From NCBI GenBank assembly GCA_009914755.4, contig CP068257.2, forward strand, positions 6,848,001 through 6,912,000: DNA of 64,000 nucleotides, written 5' to 3'. Both the position numbers and the translations under genes were made by a program. Numbering within the stretch: the stretch's first letter is position 1; every line of letters starts with the position of its first letter. Shown piece by piece: positions 1 to 49,081 of this stretch. The notes under the pieces were generated by a model, which saw only the letters and a list, made by a program, of their open reading frames with translations, made no database searches and was not told the origin of the DNA. The stretch is from the human T2T-CHM13v2.0 reference genome, Homo sapiens.

Positions 1-3000
1 GAGTGGAATGGAATATAATGGAATGAGTGGAATGGAATGGAATGGAATGGAATGGAGTGGAATGGAATGTAATGGAATGGAATGGAATGGAATCATCACG
101 AATGGAATGGAATGGAATGGAATGGAATGGAACGGAACGAAACGGAATGGAATGGAATGGAATGGAATGAACCCGAATGGAATGGAATGGAATGGATTGG
201 AAAGGAATGGAATGGAATCAACTCGAGTGGAATGGAATGTAATGGAATGGAGTGGAATGGAATGTAATGGAATGTAATGTAATGGAATGGAATGGAATGG
301 AATGGAAGGGAATCATCCCGAATGGAATGGAATGGAATGGAATGGAATAGAATGGAATGGAATCAACGCGAATGGAATGTAATGGAATGGAATGGAATGG
401 AATGGAATTGTACGGAATGACCTGAGCGGAATGATATAGAATGCAATGGAATGGAACGGAATGGAATGGAATAAAATGGAAAGGAATGGAATGGAATCAA
501 CCCGAGTGAAATGGAATGGAATGGAATGGAAAGGAACTGAATCAACCTGAGGGGAATGGAATGGAATGGAATGGAATGGAATGGAATGGAATGGAATCAA
601 CTAGAATGGAGTGGAATAAAATGGAATGGAATGGAATGGAATCAACCCGATTAGAACGGAATGGAATGGAATGGAATGGAATGGAATGGAATGGAATGGA
701 ATCAACCCGAGTGGAATGGAATGGAAAGGAATGGAACTGAACTGAATGGAATGCAATGGAATCAAATGGAATGGAATGGAATGGAATGGAAAGGCATCAA
801 CCCGAGTGGAGTGTAATAAAATGGAATGGAATAGAATGGAATGGAATCAAGCCGAGTGGAATGGAATGGAATGGAATGGAATGGAATGGAATCAACCCGA
901 GTTGAATGGAATGGAATGCAATGGAATCAACTGGAATGGAATGGCATGGATTGGAATGGAACGGAATCAACATGAATCAAATGGAATGGAATGGAATGGA
1001 ATACAATGGAATGGAATGGAATGGAATGGAACGGACGGAATGGAATGGAATGGAATGGAATGGAATGAAGCCGAATGGAATGGAACAGAATAGATTGGAA
1101 TGGAATGGAATAGAATCAACCGGAGTGGAATGGAATGTTATAAAACCGAATGGAATGGAATGGAATTGAATGGAATGTAACGGAATGGAATGGAATGGAA
1201 ACGAATCAACCCGAGTGGAATGGAATGCAATGGAATTTAATGGCATGGAATGGAATGGAATGGTATGGAATAAACCCGAGTGGAATGGTGTGGAATGGAA
1301 TGGAATGGAACGGAATGGAATGGAATAAAATGGAATGGAATGGAATGGAATCAACCCGAGTGAAATGGAAAGGAATGGAATGGAATGGAATGGAATGGAA
1401 TGGAATGGAATGGAATGGAATCTACCGGAGTGGAGTGGAATGGAATGGATTTCAATGGAATGGAATTTAATGGAATGGAATGGAATGGAAAGGAACGGAA
1501 TGGAAAGGAACGGAATGGAATCAACCCGAGTGGAATGGAGTGAAATGGAATGGAATGGAATGGAATGGAATGGAATGCAAAGGAATGGAATGGAATGGAA
1601 TGGAACGAAATGGAATGGAATGGAATGGAATGGAATGAACCCGAATGGAATGGAATGGAATGGAATGGATTGGAATGTAATGGAATGGAATCAACTCGAG
1701 TGGAATGGAATGGAATGGAATGGAGTGGAATGGAATGGAATGGAATGGAGTGGAATGGAATGGAATGGAATGGAACGGAACGGAATGGAATGGAATGGAA
1801 TGGAATCAACCCGAGTGGAATGGAATGGAATGGAATGGAATGGAATGGAATGGAATGGAATCAACCCGAATGGAATGGAATGGAATGGAATGGAATGGAA
1901 TGGAATGGTATGGAATGACCCCAGTGGAATTGTATAGAAAGGAATGGAATGGAACAGAATGGAATGGAATAAAATGGAAAGGATTGGAATGGAACTGACC
2001 CGAGTGAAATGGAATGGAATGGAATGGAATGGAAAGGAAGTGCATCAACCTGCGTGGAATGGAATGGAATGGAATGGAATGGAATGGAATCAACTAGAAT
2101 GGAGTGGATTAAAATGGAATGGAATGGAATGGAACCAACCCGATTAGAAGGGAATGGAATGGAATGGAATGGAATGGAATCAACCCGAGTGAAATGGAAT
2201 GGAATGGAATGGAACTGAACGGAATGGAATGCAATGGAATCAACTGGAATGGAATGGAAAGGAATCAACCAGAGTGGAGTGTAATCAAATGGAATGGAAT
2301 GGAATGGAATGGAATCAACCCGATTGGAACGGAATGGAATGGAATGGAATGGAATGGAATGGAATTTAATGGAATGGAATGTAATGGAATTGAATCAACC
2401 CGAGTTGAATGGAATGGAATGGAGTGGAATGGAATGCAACGGAATGGAATGCAATGGAATCAACTGGAATGGAATGGAATGGATTGGAATGGAACGGAAT
2501 CAACATGAATCAAATGGAATGGAATGGAATGGAATGCAATGGAATGGAACGGAATGGAATTTAAACTACTGGAATGGAATAGAAACGACCCAACTGGAAT
2601 GGAATGCAATGGAATGGAATGGAATGGAATGAAATTCAATCATCACTAGTGGAATGAATGGAATGGAATGGAAAGGAATGGAATTGAATGGAACAGAAAG
2701 TAATGGTATGGAATCAATCCGAGAGGAATGGTATGGAATGGAATGGAGTGGAATGGAATGGAATGGAATAAAATGGAATTGAATGGAATGGATTCAACCC
2801 GAGTGAAATGGAATGGAATGGAATGGAATGGAATGGAATGGAATGGAATGGAATGCAATCAACCCTAGTGGAATGCAATGGAATAGAATGGAAGGGAATG
2901 GAATGGAATGGAATCAACCAGAGTGGAATGGAATGGAATGGAACGGAATCACCCCGAGTGGAATGAAATGGAATATCATGCAATGAAATGGAATGGAATC

Positions 3001-5058
3001 AACACTAGTGGAATGGAATAGAATGGAATGGAATGGAACGGAATGGAAGGCAATGTAATCAACTGGAATGGAATGGAGTGGAATGGAATGGAATGGAATC
3101 AATCCGGGTGGAATGGAATGGAATGTAATGGATTGCAATGGAATGGAATGGAGTGGAATGGAATGGAATGGAATGGCGTTTAATGGAATATACCCGAATG
3201 GAATAGAATGGAATGGAATGGAATGGAATGGAATGGAATGGAATGGAATGGAATCAACCCAAAAGTGATGGAATGGAAAGGAATGGAATCGAATGGAGTC
3301 AAACCAAGTGGAATGGAGTGGAATGAAACGAAGCGGAAGCAACCCGAGTTGAATGGAATGGAAAGGAATGGAATAGAATGGAATGGAATGGAATGGAATG
3401 GAATGGAATGGAATGGAATCAACCGGACTAGAATGGAATGGAATTGAATGGTATGAATGGAATGGAATTGTATGGAATCAACCCTAGTGGAATGGAATGG
3501 AATGGACTGGAATGGAATGGAATGGAATGGAATGGAATGGAACGGAATGGAATGGATTGGAATGGAATGGAAGGGAACGGAACGGAATGGAATGGAATGG
3601 AATGGAATGGAATGAACCTGAATGGAATGGAATGGAATGGAATGGAATGGAATTGAATCAACACAAGTGGAATGGAATGGAATGGAATGGAATTGAATCA
3701 ACACGAGTGGAATGGAATGTAATGGATTGGAGAGCAACTGAATGGAATTTAATCGAATGGATTGGAATGGATTAGAATCAACCCAAATGGAATGGAATGG
3801 AATGGAATGGAATGGAATGGAATGGTATGGAAAGAACCCGAGTGGAATGGTATGGAATGGAATGGTATGGAATCAACCTTAGTGGAATGGTATGGAATTT
3901 TATGGAATGGAATGGAATGGAATTCAATGGAATGGAATGGAAAAAATGGAACGGAATGGAATGGAATCAACCTGAGAGGAATGGAATGGAATGGAATGGA
4001 ATGGAATCGAATGGAATGGAATGGAATGGCATGGAATGGAATCAACCCAAGTGGAATGGAAAGGAATGGAATGGAATGGAATGGAATGGAATGGAATGGA
4101 ATGGAATGGAATTGAATGGAATGGAATGCAATGGAATGCAATGGAATCAACTGGAATGGAATGCAATGGAATGGAATGGGAAGGAACTGAATCAACCTGA
4201 GTGGAATGGAATGGAATGGAATGGAATGGAATGGAAATTAATGGAAAGGAATGGAAAAAACCTGAGGGGAATGGAATGCAATGGAATGGAATGGAATGGA
4301 ATCGAATGGAATTCAACGGAATGGAAACGACCCCGTTGCAGTGCAATGGAATGGATTGAACTGGAATGAAATGGAATGGATTGTAATCAACCCGTATCGA
4401 ATGCAATGGAATGGAATGGAAGGGAATGGAATGGAAAGGAATGGAATAAAATCAAATGGAATGGAATGGAATGGATTGGAATCAACCCGAGTCAAATGCA
4501 ATGGATAGGAATGGAATGGAATGGAATGGAATGGAATGGAATGGAATGGAATGGAATCAATTCGAGTGGAATGGAACTGAAAGGAAGGGAATTGACTGGA
4601 AACGTAACTACCCGAGTGGAGCGGAATGGAATGGAATGTAATAGAATGGAATGAGCCCCAGTGGAATGGAATGCAATGGAATGGAATGGAATGGAATCAA
4701 ACATGAGTGGAATGAAATGGAATGGAATCAACATAAGTGGAATGGATTGGAATGGGACGGAATGGAATGAAATGGAATGGAATGGAATGGAATGGAACGG
4801 AATGGGACGGAATGGAATGAAATGGAATGCAATGAAATGGGACGGAATGGAATGAAATGGAATGGAATGGAATGGAATGGAATGGAATGGAATGGAATGG
4901 AATGGAATAGACTGGAAAGGAAAGTAATGGAATGAAGTGAAATGGAAGGGATTCAACCCGAGCGGAATGGAATGCAATGAAATGGAATGCAATAGAAAGT
5001 AATGGAATGGAATCGATTGGAAACAACCTGAGTGGAATGGAATGGAATGGAATGAAAT
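1..5058 (+). repeat. Human satellite III (HSat3): (GGAAT)n pentamer array with interspersed CAACCCGAGT / CAACCCGAAT decamers
   Basis: GGAATGGAATGG runs continuously on the + strand, interrupted every ~50-100 bp by 'atcaacccgagtgg' / 'aacccgaatgg'. These are the reverse complement of the classic satellite III ATTCGGGTTG decamer. The array ends abruptly at 'ggaatggaatgaaatatcaaagtacc' (~5058). The MEWNG/IPFHS ORF-track peptides are translations of this repeat. Confidence 0.93.
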
Positions 5059-8000
5059 ATCAAAGTACCATAACTAATATTATATACTGTTCATAAAATA
5101 TCAAAGTACCCAAACATATATTATATACTGTACATAAAATAACAAAGTACCCAAACTATATATTACATATAGTACATAAAATATCAAAGTACTAAAAGTA
5201 TATATTATATACTGAATATAAAATAACAAATTACCCAAACTATATATTGTATATTGTATATAAAATAAAAATTACACAAAATATATATTATATAATGTAC
5301 ATAAAATATCAAAGAACCCAAATTACATCTTATATACTGTACATAAAATATCAAAGTACCCAAAATATATATTCTATACTGTACATAAAATATAAAATAC
5401 GAAAAATATATATTCTATACTGTGCATAAAATATCAAAATACACTAAATATATATTATATACTGTACAGAAAATATCAAAGTAACCAAACTATATATTAT
5501 ATACTGTACATAAAATATCAAAGTACCCAAACTATATATTATATACTGTACATATAATATCAAATTACACAAACTATATATTATATACTGAACATAAAGT
5601 ATAAAATTACCCAAACGATATATTATAAACTGTACATAAAATATCAAAGTACACCAAATATATATTCCGTACTCTACATAAAATATTAAAGTACATCAAA
5701 TATATATTCTATACTGTACATCAATTATCAAAGTACATTAAATATATATTCTATAATTTAGATAAAATATAAAAGTACAACAAATATATATTCTATACTG
5801 TATATCAATTTTCAAAGTACATGAAATATATATTATATACTGTCCATAAAATATCAAAGTACACCAAATATATATTCTATCCTGTACATAAAATATCAAA
5901 TTACCCATACGATATATTATATACTGTACATAATATATCAAGGTACCCAAACATTATATTATATACTGTTCATAAAATATGAAAGTACACCAAATATATA
6001 TTCCATACTCTACATAAAATATCAAATTACATCAAATATAAAACCTATACTGTACAAAAAATATCAAAGTACACCAAATATATATTCTATACTGTACATA
6101 AAATATCAAAGTATGCAAAGTATATATCATATAATGTACATAAAATATCAAAGTATCCGAAGTATATATTATGTACTCTACATAAAATATCAATGTACAC
6201 AAATTTTATATTATATACTGTACAAAAAGTCAAAGCACACAAACTATATATTATATACTGTACATAATGTATCAAACTACACAAAATATATATTTTATAC
6301 TGTATATAAACTATCAAATTACCCAAACTATATATTATATACTGTACATAAAATATGAAAGTACACAAATTTTATATTATATACTGTACATAAAGTATCA
6401 AAGTACCCAAACTTTATATTATATACTGTAGATAAAACATCAAAGTACACCAAATATATATTATATACTGTACATAAAATATCAAAGTACCCAAACTATA
6501 TATTATATACTGTACATAAAATATCAAAGTACCCAAAGTATATATTATATACTATACATAAAATATCAAAGTACCCAAACTATATATTATATACTGTACA
6601 TAAAATATCAAAGTAGCAACACTATATATTGCATACTGTACATGAAATATCAAAGTACCCAAAATATATATTATGAACTGTACATAAAATATCAAAAGAC
6701 CCAAAATATATATTATATACTGTATGTAAAATATCAAAATACCAAAAATATATATTATATACTGTACATAAGATATCAAAGTACCAAAAATATATATTAT
6801 ATACTTTACCAAAAACCTCAAAGTATCCAAAATATATATGATATCCTCTACATAAAATATCACACTACTCAAATTATATATTATATACTGTATAAAAAAT
6901 ATCAAAGTACCCAAAATATATATTCTATACTGTACATAATATATCAAAGTACCCAAAGTAGATATAATATACTGTACATAAAATATCATAGTACACCAAA
7001 TATATATTATATACTGTACATAATATATCAAAGTACAACAAATATATATTATATACTGTACATAAAATATCAAAGTACTTAAAACATATATTACATACTG
7101 TCCATAAAATATCAATGTACCCAAAATATATTTTATATACTGTACTTAAAATATCAAAGTATGCAAACGATATATTATACACTGTACATAAGATATCAAT
7201 GTACCCAAACTATGTATTATATACTGTACATAAAATATCAAACTACGCAAAATATATATTATATACTATACATAAAATATCAAAGTTCCCAAAATATATA
7301 TTATATACTGTACATAAAATTTCAAAGTAACCAAAATATATATTAAATACTGCACATAAAATATCAAAGTACAAAAACTGTATATTACACACTATACATA
7401 AAATATCAAAGTACACATACTATATTTTATATACTGTACATAAAATATCAAAGTAGTATAACTATATTTTATATACTGTACATAAAATGCAAAGTACACA
7501 AACTACATATTATATACTGTACATAACATATCAAAGTACCCACAATATATATTATATACTGTACATAAAATATGAATGTACCCAAACTATATATTATATA
7601 ATGTATATAAAATATCAAAGTATCCACACTATATATTGTATGCTGTACATAAAATATCAAACTACCAAACTATATATTATATACTGTACATAAAAAATCA
7701 AACTTCCCAAAATATATATAATATACTGTACGTAAAATATGAAATTACCCATTATATATATTATGTACTGTACGTAAAACTTCAAAGGACCCAAAATATA
7801 TATTATATACGGTACATAAAATATCAAACTACCCCAACTATGTATTCTATACTGTACAAAAAATATCAAAGTTCACCAAATATATATTCTATACTGTACA
7901 TAAAATATCAAAGTACACCAAATTTATATTCAATACTTTACATAAAATATCAAAGTACGCAAAGTATATATTATATAATGTACATAAAATATCAAATTAA

Positions 8001-11000
8001 CTGAAGTATATATTATGTACTGTAGATAAAACATCAATGTACACCAAGTATATATTGTATATTGTACAAAAAATATCAAAGCATACAAAGTATATATTAT
8101 ATACTGTACATAACATATCAAAGTACGCAAAGTATATATTATATACTGTATATAAAATATCAAATTACTCAAACTATATACTATATACTGCACATAAAAT
8201 ATCAAACTGCCGAAACTTTATATTATATACTGTACATAAAATATCAAATTACCCAAACTTTATATTTTATACAGTACATAAAATATTAAAGTACACCAAA
8301 TATATATTATATAGTGTACATAAAATATAGAGGTAAACAAACTATACATTATATACTCTACATAAAATATGAAAGTACAAAACTATATATTATATACTGT
8401 ACATAAAATATCAAAGTACCCACACTACATATTATATACTGCACATAGAATATCAATGTACCCAAACTATATATTATATACTGAACATAAAATATCAAAG
8501 TACCCACACTATATATTATATACTGTACATAAAATATCAAATTACACACAATATATATTATATACTGTACATAAAATATCAAAGTACACAATGTTTATAA
8601 TGTATATTGTACATAAAATATGAAAATACCCTATATATTATATACTGTACATAAATATCAAAGGACCAAATATATATATTATATACTGTACATAAAATAT
8701 CAATCTACAAAAACTACATATTCTATACTCTACATAAAATATCAAAGTACACCAAATATATATTCTATACTGTACATAAAATATCAAAGTACACCAACTA
8801 TATATTATATAATATACATAAAATATCAAAGTACACCAAATATATATTCTATACTGTACAACAAATATCAACATTTCCACACTATATATCTTATACTGTA
8901 CATAAAATATCAAAGCACACAAACTGTATATTATACTCTGTACATAAAATATCAAAATACACAAACTACATATTTTATACTGTACATAAAATATCAAGGT
9001 ACAAAAAATATATATTATATACTGTACATAAAATGTCAAAGGACACAAAATATATATTATAAACTGTACATAAAATATCAAAGGACCCAAAATATATATT
9101 ATATATTATAAACAAAATATCAAAGGACCCAAAATATATATTACATACTGTACATAATATATCAAAGTACCCAAAATACATATTATATACTTAACATAAA
9201 ACATCAAAGGACCCAAAATACATATGATATCCAGTACATAAAATATCACACTACTCAAATTATATATTATATACTGTACATAAAATATCAAACTACACAA
9301 ATTGTATATTTTATACTCTACATAAAATATAAAGGTACCCAAACTATATATTATATACTGTACATAAAATATCAAAGAACACAAACTGTATATTATACAC
9401 TATACATAAAATATCAAAGTACACAAACTACATATTATATACTGTACATAAAATATCAAATTACCAAAAATATATATTTTATACTGTACATAAAATATCA
9501 AAGGAACCAAACTATATATTATAAACTGTAGATAAAATATCAAAGAACCCAAAATATATATTACATACTGTAAACAAAATATCGAAGGACCCAAAATATA
9601 TATTGTATACTGTACATAAGATATCAAAGTACCCAAAACACATATTATATACTTTACATAAAACATCAAAGTACCCAAAATATACAAGATATACTGTACA
9701 TAAAATATCACTCTACTCAAATTATAAATTATATACTGTACATAAAATATGAAAGTACCCAAAATTTATATTACATACTCCACATAAAATATCAAAGTAC
9801 ACAAACTGTATATTATACACTGTACATAAAATATCAAAGTACACAAACTATATTTTATATACTGTACAGAAAATATGAAAGTACCCAAACTATACTTTAT
9901 AACTGTACATAAATATCAAAGTAACCAAACTAAATATTATATACTGTACATAAAATATCAAACTCCTCCAACTATATATTCTATACTGTACATAAAATAT
10001 CAAAGTACAGCAAATATATATTCTATACTGTACATAAAATATCAAAGTACACCAAATATATATTCAATACTGTACATAAATCTCAAAGTATGCAAAGTAT
10101 ATATTATATAATGTACATAAAATATCAAAGTATCCGAAGAATATATTATGAACTCTACATAAAATATCAAAGTCAACAAACTTTATATTATACACGGTAC
10201 ATAAAAAATCAAAATACATCAAATATATAGTATATACTGTACATAACATATCAAAGTACCCCAACTATATATTATATACTGTACATAAAATTTCAAAGTA
10301 CCAAAAATAAATATTATATACAGTACATAAAATATAAAATACCCACACTATATATTATATACTGTACATAAAACATCAAAGTACCCAATATTTTTATTGT
10401 ATACTGTACATAAAATATCAAAGTACCCAAAATATATATTATAAACTGTACATAAAATATCAAAGGACCCAAAATATATATTATATACTGTACATAAAAT
10501 ATAAAATTAACCTAAATATATATTATAAACTGTACATAAGATACCAAAGTACCCAAAATATGTATTATATACCTAAGATAAAACATCAAAGCACCCAAAA
10601 TATATATGATATCCTGAACATAAAATATCACACTACACAAATTATATATTATATAATGTACATAAAATATCAAAGTGCCCAAAATATATGTTATGTACTG
10701 TACATAAAATACCAAAGCACACAAACTGTATATAAAACACTGTACTTAAAATATCAAAGTACACAACTAAATATTGTATACTCTACATAAAATATTAAAG
10801 TACCCAATATATATATTATATACAATACATAAAATATCAAAGGACACAAAATATATATTATAAACTGTATATAAAATTTCAAAGGACCCAAAATATATAT
10901 TATATACTGTACAGAATATATCAAATTACCCAAAATATCTATTATATACTGTACATAAGTTATCAAAGTACCCAAAATATGTATTATGTAGTTTACATAA

Positions 11001-11956
11001 ATCATCAAAGTACCCAAAATATATATGATATCCTATACATAAAATATCACATTATTCCAATTATATATTATATGCTGTACATAAATTATCAAAGAACCCA
11101 AAATTTATATTATATACTGTACATAAAATATCAAAATACACAAACTGTATATTATACACTGTATATAAAATATCAAAGTACACAAGCTACATATTATATA
11201 CTGTACATAAATTATCAATGTACCCAATATATATATTATACACTGTATGTAAAATATCAAAGTACACAAACTCTATATTATACACTGTACATAAAATACC
11301 AAAGTACAAAACTATGTTTTATATACTGTACATGAAATGTGAAAGTACACTAATTATTTTACATACTATACATAAATATCAAAGGACAGAAACTATATAT
11401 TATATACTGTACATAAAATATCAAAGTACCTAAAATATATATTAAATACTGTACATAAAATATCAATGTACACAAACTATATATTACATATCGTACATAA
11501 AATATCAAAGTATGCAAAATATGTAGTATAGACTGTACATAAAATATCAAAGTACCCAGAATATATATTATATACTGTACATAAAATATCAAAGTACACA
11601 AAATATATATTATATAATATACATAAAATATCAAAGTTCCCAGAATATGTATTATATACTGTACATAAAATTACAAAGTAACCAAAATATATATTAAATA
11701 CTGTACATAAAATATCAAAGTACAGAAACTGAATACTATACACAGAACATAATATATCAAAGTACACAGACCATGTTTTACATACTGTACATAAAAAAAC
11801 AAAGAACCCAAACTATATTTTATATACTGTACATAAAATATCAAAGTACCCAAACTATATATTATATACAGTACATAAAATATCAAAGTACCCAAAATAT
11901 ATATTATATACTGTACATAAAATATGAATGTACCCAAACTATATATTACATACTGT
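5059..11956 (+). repeat. Human satellite I 42-bp AT-rich monomer array (HSat1A / SAR-type), ~164 monomers in one orientation
   Basis: Strict 42-bp periodicity of 'acataaaatatcaaagtacccaaactatatattatatactgt' with variants (ttctatactgtaca, caccaaatatat). Composition is A+T-rich (~75-80%). Orientation is constant across the block. This matches the published 17+25-bp organisation of satellite I. The family name is from memory, not a database hit. Confidence 0.8.
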
Positions 11957-13870: not shown

Positions 13871-14163
13871 TTTTTTTTAGACAGAGCCTTGTCCTGTTGC
13901 ACAGCGTGAGGTACAATGGCGCCATCTTTACTCACTGCAACATCTGCCTCACGGGTTCAAGCGATTGTCCTCCCTCAGCCTCCCAGGTAGCTGGGAGTAC
14001 ACCACACTGGGACTACACCAGCTGCCACCATGCCTAGCTAAACTTTTGGATTTTTAGTAGTGACAGCGTTTCACTGTATTGGCCAGGATGGTCTTGATCT
14101 CTTCACCTTGTGATCCCCTTGCCTTGGCCTCCAAATTTCCTGGGATTACAGGCCTGAGCCAAG
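13871..14163 (-). mobile_element. Alu-derived segment embedded in HSat1B unit 2 (antisense, old/diverged)
   Basis: 'ttttttttagacagagccttgtcctgttgcacag...cctcccaggtagctgggagtacacc...cctgggattacaggcctgagccaag' is the reverse complement of an Alu. The same segment recurs once per 2.4-kb unit. Confidence 0.85.
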
Positions 14164-33060: not shown

Positions 33061-33354
33061 TTTTTTTTTAGACAGAGCCTTGTCCTGTTGCACAGCGTGG
33101 GGTACAATGGCGCCATCTTTACTCACTGCAACATCTGCCTCACGGGTTCAAGCGATTGTCCTCCCTCAGCCTCCCAGGTAGCTGGGAGTAGACCACACTG
33201 GGACTACACCAGCTGCCACCATGCCTAGCTAATTTTTTGGATTTTTAGCAGTGACAGCGTTTCACTGTATTGGCCAGGATGGTCTTGATCTCTTCACCTT
33301 GTGATCCCCTTGCCTTGGCCTCCAAATTTCCTGGGATTACAGGCCTGAGCCAAG
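33061..33354 (-). mobile_element. Alu-derived segment of HSat1B unit 10
   Basis: Same antisense Alu sequence at unit periodicity. Confidence 0.85.
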
Positions 33355-35455
33355 ATACATGTTTTTTAAATGAAGAAGAATTTCAAAGCTACTCTGCTTG
33401 GGACAAGAATCAAATATATAAACTGAGGAATAAAACATAACCATGAAACATATTTATAACTGCATATGGAAAATACAGAGGATAATTTTTTAAATAACAT
33501 ATTTTGAAAGCATTAACTAGTAATTTGAAGAGTTGGCATTTGAAAGGCCCGTATGAATATACCTTCAAAGCAGCAACACAGGTTCCCCATGAGAAAAATC
33601 AAACTCAGGGAAAATAAAACCACAAGGGTTCACTCTGTTCTGACCTTTGAAAAACACAGCACAGACAGTGGCCCTTAGGACCAAGAGCAGGAGATCCCTA
33701 ATCCCGTCACCACGGCGATAGGGCACAAACATTGCAGGGTGAGGGCACAATCCACATTGTGAGGTCCAACTGCTGCCGGGAAGACAGGAGTGCTTTTACA
33801 TAGACCCAAAGGTCATTGAAGGCTCAGTGTTTTGTTTCAAAAACTGAATCCCAAGCCCACACATTACTATGCTGCGCTTCTTAAAACAAGTTATGAGATG
33901 GGAAATAGGGCACCCACAAATATATCTATACATTATGTATATAATAATATATAGAATCATATATATAATATATGTAACATATATATATAATATTCTTTTA
34001 CACCCTGCATCTTACATTATGTATATTATATGTAATATAATAATTGAAAGTATATAAGTATAATATTTATACAATATGACATATAATAATTATATTTTAT
34101 GACATATATAATATATATTCTATATCATATATAGAATATATTATATGGTTAATATACGTACTAAATATATAATATACATTATATGTATTATATATATTAT
34201 ATCTACGTTATATATAACATACCTCATAGATAATATATATGATATCTCTGTTATATATAATATAAAATAACATAAAAAAATATATAATTGTATATATAAA
34301 ACATGACATATAATATATATTATATTTTATGACATATATAATACATATTATATATTATATATGTAATACGTTGTATGTATGATGCATATATTAAATATAT
34401 ATGATATGTCTACGTTATTAATTATATGTAATATATGTTATGTATTATATATTTTACATGGAATACACATGTTACATATAATTTATACTATGTTACCTAT
34501 AACGTATAATTTATTATATATAATATAATATATGTCATAAGTTATATGTAATTTATAATATACAGTATGTGGAATGTGATATATATGACATGTAATATAT
34601 GATATGTAACATACAATATATCATATATAACATACAATATATGATACATAATATATATGGTATACAAAATATATTTTATGATATATATTATATATGTTTT
34701 ATATTATATTACATATATCTATTTAAAATTATATATAACGGTATAATATTATACGTAAATATATAATATATATGACTATATATGAAGTTATATATAACTT
34801 TATTACATACTTTACATAATACATCATAATATAATGCATATGTTATATTATTTTATATTACATAATATATATTACATATCACATAATGTATACTACCTAC
34901 ATAATATTAAAATATATATTATAATATGATATATTAAATATCATATATATTATGTATCCTATATTGTATAATATACATTATATATTATATAACATGTATG
35001 TTGTCTATCATATTATATATATAATTATATATGATTATATTGTCATACATATAACGATATAAATATGTAATTATATATATCATTATTTATATTATATGTA
35101 ATTATATAATCATGTTTAATTATTTATATTTTATAAATAATTATATGATTTTATAAATTATAATATATATAAATTATACTATGTAATAAAAATATATATA
35201 TTATAGATCATATATGATATAGTATATATGTTACATATCATATTATATAGAAATATATGTTATGTTATATACAATTATATAATTTCATATATAAGATGTA
35301 TAATATGTATTATCTATTATATATGTTATGTAATATATATAATGTAAATAAGCTGACACAGGATAAATATTAAATATTATGATATATAATATATTTGAGG
35401 TTATATATTACATATAAAGCATATTACAAAACATATAATATATATCATGTATAAT

Positions 35456-35748
35456 TTCTTTTTAGACAGAGCCTTGTCCTGTTGCACAGCGTGGGGTACA
35501 ATGGCGCCATCTTTACTCACTGCAACATCTGCCTCACGGGTTCAAGCGATTGTCCTCCCTCAGCCTCCCAGGTAGCTGGGAGTACACCACACTGGGACTA
35601 CACCAGCTGCCACCATGCCTAGCTAATTTTTTGGATTTTTAGTAGTGACAGCGCTTCACTGTATTGGCCAGGATGGTCTTGATCTCTTCACCTTGTGATC
35701 CCCTTGCCTTGGTCTCCAAATTTCCTGGGATTACAGGCCTGAGCCAAG
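35456..35748 (-). mobile_element. Alu-derived segment of HSat1B unit 11 (variant 'ataatttctttttagacagag')
   Basis: Same antisense Alu sequence. The poly-T is shortened and interrupted in this diverged distal unit. Confidence 0.85.
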
Positions 35749-37844
35749 ATACATATTTTTTAAATGAAAAAGAATTTCCAAGCTACTCTGCTTGGGACAA
35801 GAATCAAATATATAAACTGAGGAATAAAACATAACCATGAAGCTTATTTATAACTGCATATGGAAAATACAGAGGATAATTTTTTAAATAACATCTTTTG
35901 AAAGCATTAACTAGTAATTTGAAGAGTTGGCATTTGAAAGGCCCGTATGAATATACCTTCAAAGCAGCAACACAGGTTCCCCATGAGAAAAATCAAACTC
36001 AGGGAAAATAAAACCACAAAGGTTCACTCTGTTCTGACCTTTGAAAAACACAGCACAGACAGTGGCCCTTAGGACCAAGAGCAGGAGATCCCTAATCCCG
36101 TCACCACGGCGATAGGGCACAAACATTGCAGGGTGAGAGCACAATCCACATTGTGAGGTCCAACTGCTGCCAGGAAGACAGGAGTGCTTTTACATAGACC
36201 CAAAGGTCATTGAAGGCTCAGTGTTTTGTTTCAAAAACTGAATCCCAAGCCCACACATTACTATGCTGCGCTTCTTAAAACAAGTTATGAGATGGGAAAT
36301 AGGGCACCCACAAATCTATCTATACATTATGTATATAATAATATATAGAATCATATATATAATATATGTAACATATATATAATATTCTTTTACACCCTGC
36401 ATCTTATATTATGTATATTATATGTAATATAATAATTGAAAATATATAAGTATAATATTTATACAATATGACATATAATAATTATATTTTATGACATATA
36501 TAATATATATTCTATATCATATATAGAATATATTATATGGTTAATATACGTACTAAATATATAATATACATTATATATATTATATATATTATATCTACGT
36601 TATATATAACATACCTTATAGATAATATATATATGATATCTCTGTTATATATAATATAAAATAACATAAAAAATATATAATTGTATATATAAAACATGAC
36701 ATATAATATATATTATATTTTATGACATATATAATACATATTATATATTATATATGTCATACGTTGTATGTATGATGCATATATTAAATATATATGATAT
36801 GTCTACGTTATTAATTATATGTAATATATGTTATGTATTATATATTTTACATGGAATACACATGTTACATATAATTTATACTATGTTACCTATAACGTAT
36901 AATTTATTATATATAATATAATGTATGTCATATGTTATATGTAATTTATTATATACAGTATGTGGAATGTGATATATATGACATGTAATATATGATATGT
37001 AACATACAATATATCATATATAACATACAATATATGATACATAATATATATGGTATACAAAATATATTTTATGATATATATTATATATGTTTTATATTAT
37101 ATTATATATAACTATTTAAAATTATATATAACTCTATAATATACGTAAATATATAATATATATGACTATATATGATGTTATATATAATTTTATTACATAC
37201 TTTACATAATATATCATAATATAATGCATATATTATATTATTTTATATTACATAATATATATTATATATCACATAATGTATGCTACATATATAATATTAA
37301 AATATATATTATATTATGATATATTAAATATCACATATATTATGTATCCTATATTGTATAATATACATTATATATTATATAACATGTATGTTGTCTATCA
37401 TATTATATATAATTATATATATGATTATATTGTCATACATATAACGATATAAATATGTAATTATATATATCATTATTTATGTTATATGTAATTATATAAT
37501 CATGTATAATTATTTATATTATATAAATAATTATATGATTTTATAAATTATAATATATATAAATTATACCATGTAATAAAAATATATATATTATATATCA
37601 TATATGATATAGTATATATGTTATATATCATATTATATAGAAATATATGTTATGTTATATACAATTATATATTTTCATATATAAGATGTATAATATGTAT
37701 TATCTATTATATATGTTATGTAATATATATAATGTAAATAAGCTGACACAGGGTAAATATTAAATATTATGATATATAATATATATGAGGTTATATATTA
37801 CATATAAAGCATATTACAAAACATATAATATATATCATGTATAA

Positions 37845-38138
37845 TTTCTTTTTAGACAGAGCCTTGTCCTGTTGCACAGCGTGGGGTACAATGGCGCCAT
37901 CTTTACTCACTGCAACATCTGCCTCACGGGTTCAAGCGATTGTCCTCCCTCAGCCTCCCAGGTAGCTGGGAGTACACCACACTGGGACTACACCAGCTGC
38001 CACCATGCCTAGCTAATTTTTTGGATTTTTAGTAGTGACAGCGCTTCACTGTATTGGCCAGGATGGTCTTGATCTCTTCACCTTGTGATCCCCTTGCCTT
38101 GGCCTCCAAATTTCCTGGGATTACAGGCCTGAGCCAAG
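37845..38138 (-). mobile_element. Alu-derived segment of HSat1B unit 12
   Basis: Same antisense Alu sequence, carrying the same variants as unit 11. Confidence 0.85.
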
Positions 38139-40250
38139 ATACATATTTTTTAAATGAAAAAGAATTTCAAAGCTACTCTGCTTGGGACAAGAATCAAATA
38201 TAAAAACTGAGGAATAAAACATAACCATGAAACTTACTTATAACTGCATATGGAAAATACAGAGGATAATTTTTTAAATAACATCTTTTGAAAGCATTAA
38301 CTAGTAATTTGAAGAGTTGGCATTTGAAAGGCCCGTATGAATATACCTTCAAAGCAGCAACACAGGTTCCCCATGAGAAAAATAAAACTCAGGGAAAATA
38401 AAACCACAAAGGTTCACTCTGTTCTGACCTTTGAAAAACACAGCACAGACAGTGGCCCTTAGGACCAAGAGCAGGAGATCCCTAATCCCGTCACCACGGC
38501 GATAGGGCACAAACATTGCAGGGTGAGGGCACAATCCACATTGTGAGGTCCAACTGCTGCCAGGAAGACAGGAGTGCTTTTACATAGACCCAAAGATCAT
38601 TGAAGGCTCAGTGTTTTGTTTCAAAAACTGAATCCCAAGCCCACACATTACTATGCTGCGCTTCTTAAAACAAGTTATGAGATGGGAAATAGGGAACCCA
38701 CAAATCTATGTATACATTATGTATAAAATAATATACAGAATCATATATATAATATATGTAACATATATATATAATATTCTTTTACACCCTGCATCTTATA
38801 TTATGTATATTATATGTAATATAATAATTGAAAATATATAAGTATAATATTTATACAATATGACATATAATAATTATATATTATGACATATATAGTATAT
38901 ATTATATATCATATATAGAATATGTTATATGGTTAATATACGTACTAAATATATAATATACATTATATATATTATATATATAATATCTACGTTATATATA
39001 ACAAACCTCATAGATAATATATATATGATATCTCTGTTATATATAATATAAAATAACATAAAAAAAATATAATTGTATATATAAAACATGACATATAATA
39101 TATATTATATTTTATGACATATATATAATACATATTATATATTATATATGTAATACGTTGTATGTATAATGCATATATTAAATATATATGATATGTCTAC
39201 GTTATTAATTATATGTAATATATGTTATATATTATATATTTTACATGGAATACACATGTTACATATAATTTATATTATGTTACCTATAACGTATAATTTA
39301 TTATATATAATATAATGTATGTCATATATTATATATATTTTATAATATACAGTATGTGGAATGTGATATATATGACATGTAATATATGATATGTAACATA
39401 CAATATATCATATATAACATACAAGATATGATACATAATATATATGGTATACAAAATATATTTTATGATATATATTATATATGTTTTATACTATAATATA
39501 TATAACTATTTAAAATTATATATAACTGTATGATATTATACATAAATACATAATATAATATATATAACTATACATTATGTTATATATAATTTTATTACGT
39601 ACTTTACATAATATATCATAATATAATGCATATATTATATTATTTTATATTACATAATATATATTATATATCACGTAATATATGCTACATACATAATATT
39701 AAAATATATATTATATTATGATATATTAAATATCGTATATATTATGTATCCTATATTGTATAATATACATTATATATTATATAACATGTATGTTATCTAT
39801 CATATGATATATAAAATTATATATATGATTATATTGTCATACATAAAACGATATAAATATGCAATTATATATATCATTATTTATATTATATATAATTATA
39901 TAATCATGTATAATTATTTATACTATATAAATAATTATATGATTATATAAATTATAATATATATAAATTATACTATGTAATAAAAAATATATATACTATA
40001 TATCATATATGATATAGTATATATGGTATATATCATATTATATATAAATATATGTTATGTTATATAGAATTATATATTTTCATATATAAGATGTATAATA
40101 TGTATTATCTATTATATATATTTTATGTAATATATATAATGTAAATAAGCTGACACAGGATAAATATTAAATATGATGTTATATAATATATATGAGGTTA
40201 TATATTACATATAAAGCATATTACATAACATATAATATATATCATGTAAA

Positions 40251-40544
40251 ATTTTTTTTTAGACAGAGCCTTGTCCTGTTGCACAGCGTGGAGTACAATA
40301 GCGCCATCTTTACTCACTGCAATATCTGCCTGACGGGTTCAAGCGATTGTCCTCCCTCAGCCTCCCATGTAGCTGGGAGTACACCACACTGGGACTACAC
40401 CAGCTGCCACCATGCCTATCTAATTTTTTGGATTTTTAGTAGTGACAGCGTTTCACTGTATTGTCCAGGATGGTCTTGATCTCTTCAACTTGTGATCCCC
40501 TTGCCTTGGCCTCCAAATTTCCTGGGATTACAGGCCTGAGCCAA
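40251..40544 (-). mobile_element. Alu-derived segment of HSat1B unit 13
   Basis: Same antisense Alu sequence, with further substitutions. Confidence 0.85.
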
Positions 40545-42624
40545 GATACATATTTTGTAAATGAAAAAGAATTTCAAAGCTACTCTGCTTGGGACAAGAA
40601 TCAAATATATAAACTGAGGAATAAAACATAACCATGAAACTTATTTATAACTGCATATGGAAAATACACAGGATAATTTTTTAAATAACATGTTTTGAAA
40701 GCATTAAATGATAATTTGAAGAGTTGGCATTTGAAAGGCCAGTATGAATACACCTTCAAAGCAGCAACACAGGTTCCGCATGAGAAAAATCAAACTCAGG
40801 GAAAATAATACCACAAAGGTTCACTCTGTTCTGACGTTTGAAAAACACAGCACAGACAGTGGCCCTTAGGACCAAGAGCAGGAGATCCCTAATCCCGTCA
40901 CCATGGCGATAGGGCATAAACATTGCAGGGTGAGGGCACAATCCACATTGTGAGGTCCAACTGCTGCCAGGAAGACAGGAGTGCCTTTACATAGACCGAA
41001 AGGTCATTGAAGGCTCAGTGTTTTGTTTCAAAAACTGAATTGCAAGCCCACACATTATTATGCTGTGTTTGTTAAAACAAGTTATGAGATGGGAAACAGG
41101 GCACCCACAAATATATATATATACATTATGTATACAATAATATATAGTATCATAAATATAATATATATAACATATATATAATATTGTTTTACATCCTGCA
41201 TCTTATACTACATATATTATATGTAATATAATAATTGATAATAAATATTATATTTATACAACATGACATATAATATATAATAATTTATGACATATATAAT
41301 ATATTGTATATATTATATATAGAATATATTATATGGTTAATATACGTATTAAATATATAATATACATTATATATATTATATATATTATATCTATGTTATA
41401 TATAATATACATTATATATAATGTATATATTATATCTATGTTATATATAATATAAAATAATATATAATAATATATAATTGTATATATAAAATGTGACATA
41501 TAGTATATATTATACTTTGTGACATATATATAATATATATTATATATTATATATATAATACGTTGTATGTAGAATACATATATTAAATATATATTATATG
41601 TCTATGTTATTAATTATATGTAATATACGTTATATATTATATATTTTACATAGAATATACATGTTACATATAATATATATTGTTACATATAATGTATAAT
41701 TTATTATATATAATATAATGTATGTCATATATTATATATAATTTATAATGTACAATATGTGGAATGTGATATATATAACATATAATATATGATATATGAT
41801 ATACAATATATGATATATAACATACAATATATGATACATAATATATATGGTATACAATATATATTTTATGTTTTATATCATATATGTTTTATATTATATT
41901 ATATATAACTATTTAAAATTATATATAACTGTATAATATTATATGTATATATATAATATAATATATATAACTATATATTATGTTATATATAATTTTATTA
42001 CATACTTTACATACTACATAATAGTATAATATATATTATATTACATTATTTTATATTACATAATATATATTATATATCACATAATATATGTTACATACAT
42101 AATATTGAAATATATATTATGACATATTAAATATCATATATATTATGTATCCTATATTGTATAATATATATTATATATTATATAATATGTATGTTGTCTA
42201 TTCTGTGATACATATAATTATATATATAATTATATTATTATGCATATAACTATATAAACATGTAATTATATATATTATTATTTATATTATATAAAATTAT
42301 ATAATCATATATAATTATTTCTATTTTATAAATAATCATATCATTATATAAATTATAATATATATAAATTATAATATGTAATAAATATATATATTATATA
42401 TCATATATGATATAGTATATATGTTATATATCATATTATATATAACTCTATATTATGTTACCTATAATTATATATTTTCATATGTAAGATGTATAATATG
42501 TATTATATATTTTATATGTTATGTAATATATATAACATATATAATATGACGTAGGATAAATATTATATATTATGACATATAATATATATGAGGTTATATA
42601 TTACTTATAAAGCATATTACATAA

Positions 42625-42942
<318 letters not shown>

Positions 42943-45021
42943 TACATATTTTTTAAATGATGAAAAATTTCAAAGTTACTCTGCTTGGAACAATAATGAA
43001 ATATATTAACTGAGGAATAAAACATAACCATGAAACATATTTATAACTGCATATGGAAAATACAGAGGATAATTTTTTAAATAACATGTTTTGAAAGCAT
43101 TAACTAGTAATTTGAAGAGTTGGCATTTGAAAGGCCAGTATGAATATACCTTCAAAGCAGCAACACAGGTTCCCCATGAGAAAAATCAAACTCAGGGAAA
43201 ATAAAACCTCAGAGGTTCACTCTGTTCTAACCTTTGAAAAACACAGCACAGACAGTGGCCCTTAGGACCAAGAGCAGGAGATCCCTAATCCCGTCACCAT
43301 GGCGATAGGGTATAAACATTGCAGGGTGAGGGCACAATCCACATTGTGAGGTCCAACTGCTGCCAGGAAGACAGGAGTGCTTTTACATAGACCGAAAGGT
43401 CATTGAAGGCTCAGTGTTTTGTTTCAAAAACTGAATCCCAAGCCCACACATTATTATGCTGTGCTTCTTAAAACAATTTATGAGATGGGAAACAGGGCAC
43501 CCAGAAATATATATATACATTATGTATATAATAATATATAGTATCATATATATAATATATATAACATATATATAATGTTGTTTCACATCCTGCATCTTAT
43601 ATTGTATATATTATATGTAATATAATAATTGATAATATATAAGTATTATATTTATACAATATGATATATAATATATATTATGTTTTATGACATATATAAT
43701 ATATATTATATATCATATATAGAATATATTATATGGTCAATATAAGTATTAAATATGTAATATACATTATATATAATACATATATTATATCTATGTTATA
43801 TATAATATAAAATAATATATAATAATATATAATTGTATATATACAATATGACTTATAATTATATATTATATTTTTTGACATATATAATATATATTATATA
43901 TTTTATATATATAATACATTGTATGTATAATACATATATTAAATATATATTATATGTCTATGTTATAAATTATATGTAATATATATTATATATTATATAT
44001 TATATATTTTATATACAATATATATGTTGTTCAACTTCTCCTTTTAAAGAAAAATGAGAAAAAATATCTCTAAAATCGAGGACAGGCAAGGAGAATGTCC
44101 CCCTTTGGGCACCCCTGCTTGTTTTATGTGTGATAATTATAGCACCTCTTCTTGCAAACATTTATGTAAAGTGAGGATTTTACTAAGGACGACCAACATC
44201 TAAGGTTCCCAAAGTGAAGAACTTTAAATATTCCCAACCTGGTCTTCTCGTATGCTAAATTAGAGAAGTTAGGTTTCTGCATCAAGGAAAATAAATGAGG
44301 GTTGTATTTTAGCTGGCACCTAAAAACATCCAAAATTAGAAATGATAAACTTATTTCTTTCCAGAAAGGTAACAACAAAATATTTGAAACTACCTCAGAA
44401 TTAAAGAAAAGTAGCAAAATCAGTTTCTAAAATCAGGAAACTGCGAGAAACTGTCTCTTCTTTTTCTTCTCCTAAACCTCTGCTTTCTAAACTTCCTTGC
44501 CTGGATGATTTCATTTTTTTTCTCTTTCTCCTCCCTGTATTCCTTCTTAAACCACAAAGGGTCCAGAAATAGCTACAGGAGAAGACAAAATAGTAGTCAT
44601 TTCTTTTAAAACAAAACCCACAGGATGAGTGGGTTCAAACATAAGATATACACCTTACACCAAGTCAGAATTAAATGCTCTGATGTTTGGATTTCCTGAT
44701 CTGACTCAAGACACCTTAGGTTTGCCAAGGAATTCCAAATAATGCTTAAGACCTATGATTCAGGGTTTTCAAACCAATATCAGCTAACTGATTTACTAGT
44801 CCTCCAAAACAAAGCCAAAGATTGCTACAAAGTAGTGAATTAGAAACAGCTTTAGCAGATTTTAACAAACTAAAGTGCAAATGGGAGAGAGAAGCGTAGG
44901 GAGTTTTGCAACTGCCTCTGTGGGAATTTACCACAGCTATTCCCCCTAATCCTATAGACTAGGCAAAATACAACAATGTAATACATACCCCAGCAAAACC
45001 ATACCTGATTATTATATCACA

Positions 45022-48778: not shown

Positions 48779-49081
<303 letters not shown>

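What the first reader, a model, noticed from the sequence alone, without database searches (positions are those of the whole stretch)
1..44025. Three classical human satellites meet at abrupt junctions: HSat3 | 42-bp satellite I | 2.4-kb HSat1B-type composite array
Three different heterochromatic families lie head to tail: 5.06 kb, 6.9 kb and 32 kb. Both junctions are sharp to the base pair, with no mosaic transition zone. The first is at 5058/5059, 'ggaatggaatgaaatatcaaag'. The second is at 11956/11957, where a 42-mer runs straight into the middle of the HSat1B non-AT segment, 'tgtatataaacattgaatgcagcaacacaggttcccc'. The second junction falls inside a HSat1B unit rather than at a unit boundary. 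The AT-rich third of each HSat1B unit resembles degenerated 42-mer sequence. Together these suggest HSat1B arose by amplification of a junction-containing segment made of satellite I, an Alu and unique DNA. HSat3, HSat1A and HSat1B together are what is described for acrocentric short arms and for Yq12 (DYZ1/DYZ2). The exact location is unresolved here.
Basis: partly seen in the sequence, partly recalled or inferred. Interest (0 to 1): 0.5.

Follow-up and report, generated by a model that had tools for sequence, protein, structure and literature searches.

The report
Three known human satellites abutting
This is an ordinary patch of human heterochromatin in which three already catalogued satellite DNA families (HSat3, the 42-bp HSat1A and the 2.4-kb HSat1B) lie side by side with clean breaks, most likely on an acrocentric short arm. 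The idea that one family gave rise to another is not supported.

Summary
A (GGAAT)n HSat3 block covers 1-5058. A 42-bp HSat1A/SAR array of about 165 copies covers 5059-~11963. From ~11959 to ~44025 there are 13.4 units of a 2.4-kb composite repeat with the published HSat1B/DYZ2 anatomy: a 559-bp GC-richer part, a diverged minus-strand Alu and an 88%-AT part.

Both junctions are abrupt, and marker words of each family never occur in another block. The exact break can only be placed within 4 bp (junction 1) and about 13 bp (junction 2).

The evolutionary reading fails. The AT-rich part is 64% of the unit, not a third. It has 7/9/16-bp periodicity and no 42-bp periodicity. It shares only the palindromic word ATATATTATATA with the 42-mer. 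The 42-mer/HSat1B junction occurs once and simply truncates an edge unit.

HSat1B copies recovered as human contamination show that the window's units form a separate variant. They are about 5% from the dominant type, which I presume is the Y type. Together with HSat1A and 20 kb of Alu-rich flank, this favours an acrocentric short arm over Yq12.

All of this is already described and annotated in T2T work. Interest is low.

The parts
1..5058 (+). HSat3-type (GGAAT)n array. It runs off the window start, so 5.06 kb is a minimum.
   Evidence: TRF period 5, 1012 copies, score 4511. 578 GGAAT, no ATTCC, and 16 CAACCYGAGY decamers. GC 0.41 with GC skew +0.6 to +0.7. Weak ~1.5-kb nested periodicity.
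5055..5058 (.). Junction 1: 4 bp (AAAT) that can be assigned to either the HSat3 variant GAATGAAAT or the 42-mer ...AAAATATCAAAG.
   Evidence: The TRF arrays overlap at 5055-5058. Sequence read. The GAATGAAATGGAATG variant occurs 5 times in the HSat3 block.
5059..11963 (+). HSat1A / SAR 42-bp array, about 165 monomers in a single orientation. The consensus ACATAAAATATCAAAGT + ACCCAAACTATATATTATATACTGT splits into 17 + 25 bp.
   Evidence: TRF period 42, 165 copies, 82% matches. 124 of 164 monomer spacings are exactly 42 bp, and mean identity to the consensus is 88%. GC 0.21, with marker words on the + strand only.
11959..11971 (.). Junction 2: a 13-bp zone (ATAAACATTGAAT) with partial matches to both registers. 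The breakpoint lies somewhere inside it.
   Evidence: Three-way alignment. BLAST homology of 77 independent HSat1B copies to the window starts at 11959. The 24-mer spanning it is unique in the window and absent from metagenome contigs.
11972..14378 (-). First HSat1B unit. The array starts at consensus position ~2391, within the GC-richer segment. The first ~1.2 kb is more diverged than the rest.
   Evidence: 96% identical to the other units. Differences per 100 bp are 9, 1, 4, 2, 12, 7, 6, 9... and fall to 0-2 in the second half. They are a mix of private and dominant-type states.
14379..43156 (-). Twelve full HSat1B units of 2390-2409 bp. The strand is given as that of the Alu subunit.
   Evidence: Anchor spacing. 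Identity matrix is 94-99% in the core and falls to 91% for unit 13. Period spectrum.
14729..16271 (.). Example AT-rich subunit (unit 2): about 1.55 kb, 88% AT, 7/9/16-bp periodicities, rich in imperfect inverted repeats.
   Evidence: Consensus bins. Composition. TRF periods 7 and 9. Top autocorrelation lags 7, 2, 14, 9, 16. DNA fold z = -3.8. 49 inverted-repeat pairs of at least 30 nt.
16272..16562 (-). Example Alu subunit (unit 2): near full-length, minus strand, with its poly(A) end abutting the AT-rich part.
16563..17129 (-). Example GC-richer 'HSATI-proper' subunit: about 559 bp, 40% GC. It spans my arbitrary unit boundary.
   Evidence: Consensus 2196-2404 plus 1-350. This segment plus the Alu is 89-99% identical to 77 independent loci.
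43157..44025 (-). Last, partial HSat1B unit, 89% identical to the consensus. The array ends inside the AT-rich part at consensus ~890.
   Evidence: BLAST of the consensus to the tail: 1-892 maps to 43157-44007 at 89%. Sequence read.
44026..64000 (.). Non-satellite right flank: Alu-rich DNA with several unrelated tandem repeats. It is not part of the three arrays.
   Evidence: No marker words of any of the three families. 13 or more Alu hits. TRF rows. No Rfam family. No Pfam domain in 10 ORFs.

Best explanation
The window is a piece of primate, almost certainly human, constitutive heterochromatin. Three known and independently evolving satellite families have been brought side by side by non-homologous rearrangement. 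The location is most likely an acrocentric short arm. None of the three has a coding or RNA-family signal.

Shown:
- HSat3, HSat1A and HSat1B arrays abut with no transition zone.
- The HSat1B array is a local variant with a homogenised core (units 2-9, 97-99% identical).
- Both of its edges are progressively more diverged. The right edge increasingly retains states shared with the commonest HSat1B type.

Inferred:
- Each array grew and is homogenised by unequal exchange or gene conversion within itself. This process reaches edge units poorly, so the edges preserve older sequence.
- The two HSat1B ends (one in the GC-richer part, one in the AT-rich part) are breakpoints of a seeding or rearrangement event that placed a few units next to a 42-mer array and next to unique DNA. 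Local expansion followed.
- The 4-bp and roughly 5-13-bp ambiguous overlaps are compatible with end joining that used microhomology. They are also within chance for such AT-rich sequence.
- The junction with the 42-mer array is therefore a secondary truncation. It is not the ancestral junction from which the HSat1B unit was built.
For: - Family identities: TRF; marker motifs; 2.4-kb period.
- The tripartite unit matches the published description of an ancient Alu, a >85% AT region and a GC-richer region in a ~2.5-kb repeat (10.1101/2022.12.01.518724). The window has a 295-bp Alu, a 1550-bp part at 88% AT and a 559-bp part at 40% GC.
- 77 independent HSat1B copies, found as human contamination in bacterial genomes and metagenomes, align at 89-99%.
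- Abruptness.
- Edge effect: identity matrix; per-100-bp profiles. At 41 diagnostic sites, dominant-type states number 0-2 in the first nine segments and then 4, 5, 8 and 15 in the last four.
- Distinct variant: the window consensus is 95.2% identical to the dominant cluster, whose within-cluster divergence is 0.87%. Over the whole unit the identity is ~91%.
- Another HSat1B junction, to a GGAAT satellite in L053, lies at a different unit position and is equally abrupt.
- Acrocentric short arms are described as patchworks of HSat1A, HSat1B, HSat3, beta satellite and segmental duplications.
Against: - No human reference genome could be searched, so the chromosomal location, the uniqueness of the junctions and their read support are untested.
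- Equating the dominant contaminant cluster with the Y-type DYZ2 is an inference from abundance and homogeneity. It is not a labelled result.
- The microhomologies are short and AT-rich, so no repair mechanism can be established.
- The edge divergence gradient shows only that the edges are not recent or artefactual. It does not prove the order of events.
Confidence: 0.85

Rival explanations
1. One reading: the HSat1B unit was created by amplifying a segment containing a satellite-I (42-mer)/Alu/unique-DNA junction, so its AT-rich part is decayed 42-mer sequence.
For: - k-mer sharing between the AT-rich part and the real 42-mer array exceeds dinucleotide shuffles (12-mers 18.6% against 10.1%, z = 6.7).
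- The best nhmmer score, 6.8 bits, is matched by only 1-2 of 100 Markov simulations.
- The two families are physically adjacent here.
Against: - All shared 12-mers map to one palindromic word (phases 18-23, ATATATTATATA). There are no matches to the ATCAAAGTACCCAAAC stretch and almost none to the CTGTACATAAAA stretch.
- There is no lag-42, lag-17 or lag-25 signal.
- The Smith-Waterman score is no better than shuffles.
- 6.8 bits compares with 66.9 bits for genuine 42-mer sequence.
- The junction is not repeated.
- None of 77 other HSat1B loci contains 42-mer sequence.
- The literature treats the families as distinct and the AT part as (TATATTA)n or (TA)n.
Confidence: 0.05
2. The window lies in Yq12 or at its border, and the arrays are DYZ1 (HSat3) and DYZ2 (HSat1B).
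For: HSat3 and HSat1B are the two Yq12 satellites, and DYZ2 blocks can be as small as 20 kb.
Against: - A 6.9-kb HSat1A array sits between them. Yq12 is described as almost entirely DYZ1/DYZ2, and HSat1A is not mentioned at all in that paper (0 occurrences in the term count).
- Y units are mostly >98% identical. The window consensus is 95% from the dominant homogeneous cluster, and 41 of 41 diagnostic sites differ in the core units.
- The HSat3 block shows ~1.5-kb nested periodicity. The 3.6-kb DYZ1 periodicity is barely testable in 5 kb.
- 20 kb of Alu-rich non-satellite flank follows.
Confidence: 0.07
3. One or both junctions are assembly misjoins rather than real genomic joins.
For: AT-rich HSat1 arrays have depleted HiFi and ONT coverage, so such regions are error-prone. 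No reads were available here.
Against: - A misjoin would be expected to land in a typical homogenised unit.
- Instead, the unit next to junction 2 shows a divergence gradient decaying over ~1.2 kb.
- The right end shows a four-unit gradient, as expected for genuine long-standing array edges.
- Abrupt HSat1B junctions exist in independent assemblies (L053).
Confidence: 0.04
4. The window comes from a non-human African ape, which also carries HSat1A, HSat3 and autosomal HSATI-type modules.
For: - HSat1A is reported on chimpanzee, bonobo and gorilla acrocentrics.
- A review citing Babcock 2007 says the tripartite repeat is autosomal in non-human primates.
Against: - A metagenome contaminant contig (L051) is 98% identical over 2.3 kb to window units 10-11 and 99.1% identical to the core consensus in the non-AT part. 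Such contamination is normally human.
- All other recovered variants lie within 5-11% of the window's units.
Confidence: 0.05

Closest known systems
HSat1B (RepeatMasker HSATI; DYZ2 on Yq12; smaller arrays on acrocentric short arms and chr10)
   Same: - Tandem unit of ~2.4 kb.
- One diverged Alu per unit, an >85% AT region rich in inverted repeats, and a GC-richer ~560-bp segment.
- Direct sequence homology of 89-99% to 77 independent copies.
   Different: - The units are a separate variant, ~5% (non-AT part) to ~9% (whole unit) from the commonest, presumably Y, type.
- The array is only 13.4 units long.
- It is flanked by HSat1A and unique DNA rather than by DYZ1.
HSat1A (Dfam SAR; classical satellite I 42-bp A+B repeat)
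   Same: - 42-bp period.
- The consensus divides into 17 + 25 bp.
- 79% AT, single orientation.
- The family is known on acrocentrics and on chromosomes 3 and 4.
   Different: - Small (6.9 kb) and rather diverged (82-88% to its consensus).
- No clear higher-order repeat, whereas the large arrays have 378-6330-bp HORs.
- The match to the Dfam consensus rests on my memory and was not tested.
HSat3 (classical satellite III, (CATTC)n-derived)
   Same: GGAAT pentamer array interspersed with CAACCYGAGY decamers.
   Different: - The subfamily (A1-6, B1-5) was not determined.
- Only 5 kb is visible.
- Nested periodicity is ~1.5 kb, not the 3.6 kb of DYZ1.
HSATI/Alu/AT-rich modules of 22q11.2 low-copy repeats (TBTA/PATRR22) and FAM230C on chr13
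   Same: Same order of HSATI (~505-566 bp), Alu and (TA)n/(TATATTA)n simple repeat (PMC5906017). The AT part is palindromic.
   Different: Those are 1-3 copies with variable and often shorter AT parts inside segmental duplications. Here there is a regular 13-unit tandem array. No sequence comparison was possible.

Membership tests
HSat3 | Array derived from the pentamer CATTC/GGAAT | tested here: met
   TRF period 5, 1012 copies. 578 GGAAT out of 1011 possible pentamers.
HSat3 | Interspersed CAACCCGAGT-type decamer. This distinguishes satellite III from II; I recall it from Prosser et al. 1986. | tested here: met
   16 CAACCYGAGY sites. HSat2-like words are rare: 6 ATCGA and 0 GATGATG. That the feature is defining rests on my memory.
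HSat3 | Subfamily-specific k-mers (Altemose classification) | not testable with these tools
   No k-mer library or human reference was available.
HSat1A (SAR) | 42-bp tandem unit made of a 17-bp A part and a 25-bp B part | tested here: met
   Period 42, 165 copies. 124 of 164 spacings are exactly 42 bp. The consensus splits as ACATAAAATATCAAAGT / ACCCAAACTATATATTATATACTGT. The A/B definition is taken from PMC9909926.
HSat1A (SAR) | Extreme AT richness (~77% or more) | tested here: met
   79% AT. For comparison, ~77% is reported for cloned HSat1A.
HSat1A (SAR) | Sequence match to the Dfam SAR consensus DF0001062 | not testable with these tools
   No Dfam or RepeatMasker was available. No paper in the library printed the consensus.
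HSat1B (HSATI / DYZ2-type) | Tandem unit of ~2.4-2.5 kb | tested here: met
   Spacings of 2390-2409 bp between 14 anchors. Period spectrum.
HSat1B (HSATI / DYZ2-type) | Tripartite unit: one ancient Alu, a >85% AT region, and a GC-richer region | tested here: met
   Alu of 291 bp at 75-76% identity to AluY, once per unit. AT part of 1550 bp at 87.8% AT, and a 559-bp part at 40% GC. Definition.
HSat1B (HSATI / DYZ2-type) | Sequence homology to independent HSat1B copies | tested here: met
   A 22-mer conserved in all 14 window units retrieved 17 bacterial-genome and 60 metagenome loci. Their non-AT 854 bp is mostly 89-99% identical to the window consensus.
DYZ2 proper (Y-chromosomal HSat1B) | More than 98% identity to the Y consensus, and alternation with DYZ1 blocks | tested here: inconclusive
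   95.2% identity to the dominant homogeneous cluster, with 41 fixed differences in 854 bp. The neighbours are HSat1A and unique DNA. However, the cluster is only presumed to be the Y type.
Acrocentric short-arm satellite patchwork | Co-occurrence of HSat3, HSat1A and HSat1B with segmental-duplication-like DNA | tested here: met
   All three are present with an Alu-rich flank. Co-occurrence is suggestive only and does not prove location.
Acrocentric short-arm satellite patchwork | Mapping to chr13/14/15/21/22 p-arm in a T2T assembly | not testable with these tools
   No human genome collection was available. Exact-protein look-ups of 4 window ORFs found nothing.

The most novel reading that the evidence does not exclude
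The window may capture, at base-pair resolution, both breakpoints of a seeding event. In that event a few HSat1B units were joined by microhomology to an HSat1A array on one side and to unique DNA on the other. They then expanded into a distinct autosomal HSat1B subfamily whose edges still carry the ancestral (Y-shared) variants. If so, this would give a direction and relative date to exchange of HSat1B between the Y and the acrocentrics. A still weaker possibility is that the shared ATATATTATATA core reflects very old common ancestry of the HSat1B AT-rich part and the 42-mer.
Probability: 0.12. Interest if true: 0.3.

Novelty: already known. Interest (0 to 1): 0.12.

Why it matters
It matters little beyond bookkeeping. 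All three families, the composite HSat1B unit and the satellite patchwork of acrocentric short arms are published and annotated in T2T-CHM13/CenSat. The useful outcome is negative: physical adjacency of HSat1A and HSat1B here is not evidence that one derives from the other. A minor positive point is that the edge-to-core gradient in a small non-Y-type HSat1B array could inform the published question of whether acrocentric HSat1B was seeded from the Y or the reverse. That needs whole-genome data.

Tried and rejected
- Exact-product look-ups of two ORFs spanning junction 2 and two ORFs in the right flank, intended to pull matching public contigs and locate the window. Nothing was on record.
- Scan of metagenome contigs for the 24-mer across junction 2. 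There were 0 hits. This is uninformative, because human contamination there is sparse.
- BLAST of the 77 recovered HSat1B loci against the 42-mer, the junctions and the right flank. There was no 42-mer, no junction, and only Alu matches to the flank.
- Rfam on the whole window: 0 families, so no rRNA or 7SL call.
- Pfam on 10 right-flank ORFs: nothing.
- Search for a clean higher-order repeat among the HSat1B units. There are only scattered close pairs (u2/u7 at 99.1%, u4/u8 at 99.2%, u5/u6 at 99.4%) and no regular HOR.
- Attempts to read Frommer 1984 (PMC318713) and Babcock 2007 (PMC1832092). Neither is held. I used secondary descriptions instead.
- Literature search for the printed 42-mer consensus. 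It returned only an unrelated siRNA.
Full report
**Observation.** Composition divides the window into four domains:
- 1-5 kb: GC 0.41 with strong G-over-C skew.
- 5-12 kb: GC 0.21.
- 12-44 kb: GC oscillating between 0.13 and 0.40.
- 44-64 kb: ordinary mixed sequence.

Tandem Repeats Finder reports a period-5 TGGAA array at 4-5058 (1012 copies, score 4511) and a period-42 array at 5055-11963 (165 copies, 82% matches, score 8539). TRF's period limit hides the third array. A 20-mer distance spectrum over 11-47 kb is dominated by 2390-2407 bp and its multiples. The word GCAGCAACACAGGTTCC recurs 14 times at 2390-2409-bp spacing between 11972 and 43157. A BLAST of the unit consensus against the tail ends at 44007-44028, after which unrelated sequence begins.

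**What each block is.**

*Block 1* has 578 GGAAT, no ATTCC and 16 CAACCYGAGY decamers. HSat2-type words are almost absent. This is the satellite III/HSat3 pattern, although the decamer criterion comes from my memory of Prosser et al. 1986.

*Block 2* has the consensus AAATATCAAAGTACCCAAACTATATATTATATACTGTACATA. Rotated, it reads as a 17-bp part plus a 25-bp part, which is the published definition of satellite I/SAR/HSat1A (PMC9909926). It is 79% AT and lies in a single orientation.

*Block 3* has a 2404-bp consensus made of three parts:
- A 559-bp, 40%-GC segment.
- A 1550-bp, 87.8%-AT segment.
- A 295-bp minus-strand Alu, 75-76% identical to an AluY consensus, whose poly(A) end abuts the AT segment.

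[quoted passage not shown] It is also the HSATI / Alu / simple-repeat pattern that RepeatMasker gives for GenBank X00470 and related modules (PMC5906017).

Membership was also tested directly. A 22-mer conserved in all 14 window units retrieved 17 contigs from bacterial genome assemblies and 60 metagenome loci. This is the human HSat1B contamination that the T2T-Y paper reports. Their Alu plus GC-richer 854 bp is mostly 89-99% identical to the window consensus.

**The junctions.** Marker words of each family occur only in their own block, so nothing is interleaved. The first 42-mer is 90% identical to the consensus, and the last two scored monomers are 98%.

At junction 1 the four bases AAAT (5055-5058) fit both the HSat3 variant GAATGAAAT and the 42-mer.

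At junction 2 the 42-mer register is clear to 11963 and the HSat1B register is clear from 11972. The 13 bases between 11959 and 11971 partly match both. BLAST homology to all other HSat1B copies starts at 11959.

The joins are therefore abrupt, but "to the base pair" is a little too strong, and 11956/11957 is off by 2-15 bp. In the other 13 units the sequence preceding this point is GC-richer non-satellite-like DNA. This confirms that the array starts in the middle of the GC-richer subunit. Its other end lies in the AT-rich subunit.

**Are the junctions real and old?** Units 2-9 are 97-99% identical to each other. Units 10-12 are ~95% identical to that core, unit 13 is ~91% identical to all other units, and the final partial unit is 89% identical to the consensus.

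Unit 1 is almost identical to the core in its distal half. In the ~1.2 kb nearest the 42-mer array it carries 4-12 differences per 100 bp. About a fifth of these are states shared with the commonest external HSat1B type, and the rest are private.

At the 41 sites that separate the window core from that external type, external-type states number 0-2 in the first nine segments. They then number 4, 5, 8 and 15 in the last four.

Array edges that escape homogenisation and keep older variants are the expected signature of genuine, long-standing boundaries. This argues against misassembly, although read support could not be checked. An independent contig (L053) shows HSat1B joined just as abruptly to a GGAAT satellite, at a different position in the unit. 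Such joins are therefore not unusual.

**Test of the origin hypothesis.**
- The AT-rich part is 64% of the unit.
- Its strongest self-similarity lags are 7, 2, 14, 9 and 16 bp. Lag 42 is at background. TRF finds TTATATA, TATATTATA and 16-mer units.
- 12-mers within one mismatch of the 42-mer consensus map almost only to phases 18-23, the near-palindromic word ATATATTATATA, and do so equally on both strands.
- There are no matches to the ATCAAAGTACCCAAAC stretch and almost none to the CTGTACATAAAA stretch.
- k-mer sharing exceeds dinucleotide shuffles (z about 4-7). The best Smith-Waterman score does not (53 against 53.4 +/- 5.7).
- A profile HMM of 42-mer dimers scores 6.8 bits on the AT-rich part. 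It scores 66.9 bits on true 42-mer sequence and 2.5-3.5 bits on Markov simulations, of which 1-2 in 100 reach 6.8.
- The junction 24-mer occurs once in the window.
- None of the 77 external HSat1B loci contains 42-mer sequence.

The resemblance is therefore limited to one low-complexity word, and the junction is not part of the amplified unit. This agrees with Altemose et al., who describe HSat1A and HSat1B as "two distinct sequence families" that merely co-purified in the same AT-rich fraction (10.1101/2021.07.12.452052).

The AT-rich part is instead rich in imperfect inverted repeats: the DNA fold z-score is -3.8 and there are 49 pairs of at least 30 nt. This matches published descriptions of palindromic AT-rich repeats in this module.

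**Location.** No human reference could be searched. The indirect evidence is as follows.
- The external copies fall into one dominant, homogeneous cluster of 28 sequences, 0.87% divergent within the cluster. Given 14 Mb of >98%-identical DYZ2 on the Y, this is most simply the Y type.
- The window's units form their own cluster together with one metagenome contig, L051. L051 is 99.1% identical to the core consensus in the non-AT part and 98% identical over 2.3 kb.
- That cluster is 95.2% identical to the dominant type in the non-AT part and ~91% over the whole unit.
- Yq12 is described as almost entirely DYZ1 and DYZ2. Here a 6.9-kb HSat1A array and 20 kb of Alu-rich non-satellite DNA flank a 32-kb HSat1B array.
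- Acrocentric short arms are described as patchworks of HSat1A, HSat1B, HSat3, beta satellite and segmental duplications. HSat1B is said to occur off the Y essentially only there and on chr10.

I rate an acrocentric short arm, or a similar autosomal pericentromeric site, as the most likely location. Yq12 and a non-human ape each get well under 10%.

**Mechanism.** The shown facts are the three homogeneous-core arrays, the abrupt joins and the edge gradients. The rest is inference from established models of satellite dynamics. Each array expands and is homogenised by unequal exchange and conversion within itself. The joins come from non-homologous or microhomology-assisted rearrangement. [quoted passage not shown] The overlaps of 4 bp and roughly 5-13 bp are compatible with microhomology use, but they are not beyond chance in such AT-rich sequence.

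**Verdict.** The family assignments are correct. The origin hypothesis is not supported. The Yq12 alternative is unlikely. Everything present belongs to kinds that are already described and routinely annotated (CenSat, RepeatMasker). Novelty: already known. Interest: low.

Noticed in passing
window 50240-50849: A 45-bp minisatellite of about 12 copies, also readable as a 90-bp dimer, about 80% matches. Consensus ATGCGTGCCCAGGTACACTTGAATTCGAGGTAAACAGCAGAACAG. Family not identified.
   Followed up: no
window 52951-55579: A 2.6-kb TCTA/TATC-rich block with nested units of about 119, 258 and 295 bp (82-84% matches) and strong C-over-G skew. A smaller CTAT block lies at 59686-59987.
   Followed up: no
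window 56763-59021: Six same-strand Alus packed into 2.3 kb, 75-91% identical to AluY. TRF reads them as a 335-bp repeat. They look like a pile-up of separate insertions rather than a tandem duplication.
   Followed up: partly
window 59145-59467 and 63124-63746: A 110-bp repeat of 2.9 copies at 93% identity, and a (TC)n tract of about 620 bp that creates long artificial Arg/Glu-rich ORFs on the minus strand.
   Followed up: no
window 1-5058: The HSat3 block shows a weak nested periodicity of about 1.5 kb (16-mer distances 1498/1503). This might help assign its subfamily.
   Followed up: no
window 33570-44025: Towards the right edge, the HSat1B units carry more and more states of the commonest external HSat1B type (4, 5, 8 and 15 of 41 diagnostic sites), and identity falls to 89-91%. 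The array edge appears to preserve older sequence.
   Followed up: yes
L006 5897-6920 (NZ_HF570958.1, Nostocoides japonicum T1-X7, 5.16-Mb scaffold): A 1-kb HSat1B fragment (GC about 0.4) sits between runs of N inside GC 0.7-0.77 actinobacterial sequence. It is a human contaminant contig scaffolded into a RefSeq bacterial genome.
   Followed up: partly
L053 1-1841 (PKQM01000722.1): An HSat1B unit (consensus 98-1268) is joined abruptly, inside its AT-rich part, to a GGAAT-type satellite. This is a different junction position from the one in the window.
   Followed up: partly
L018, L032, L033, L039, L040, L066, L070, L072, L076 (BNJT01002008.1, 54 kb) and L028 (BNJU01004413.1, 54.6 kb): Long metagenome contigs carry HSat1B arrays with very heterogeneous units, 70-94% identical to the window consensus. 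They are probably other non-Y arrays present as host contamination.
   Followed up: no
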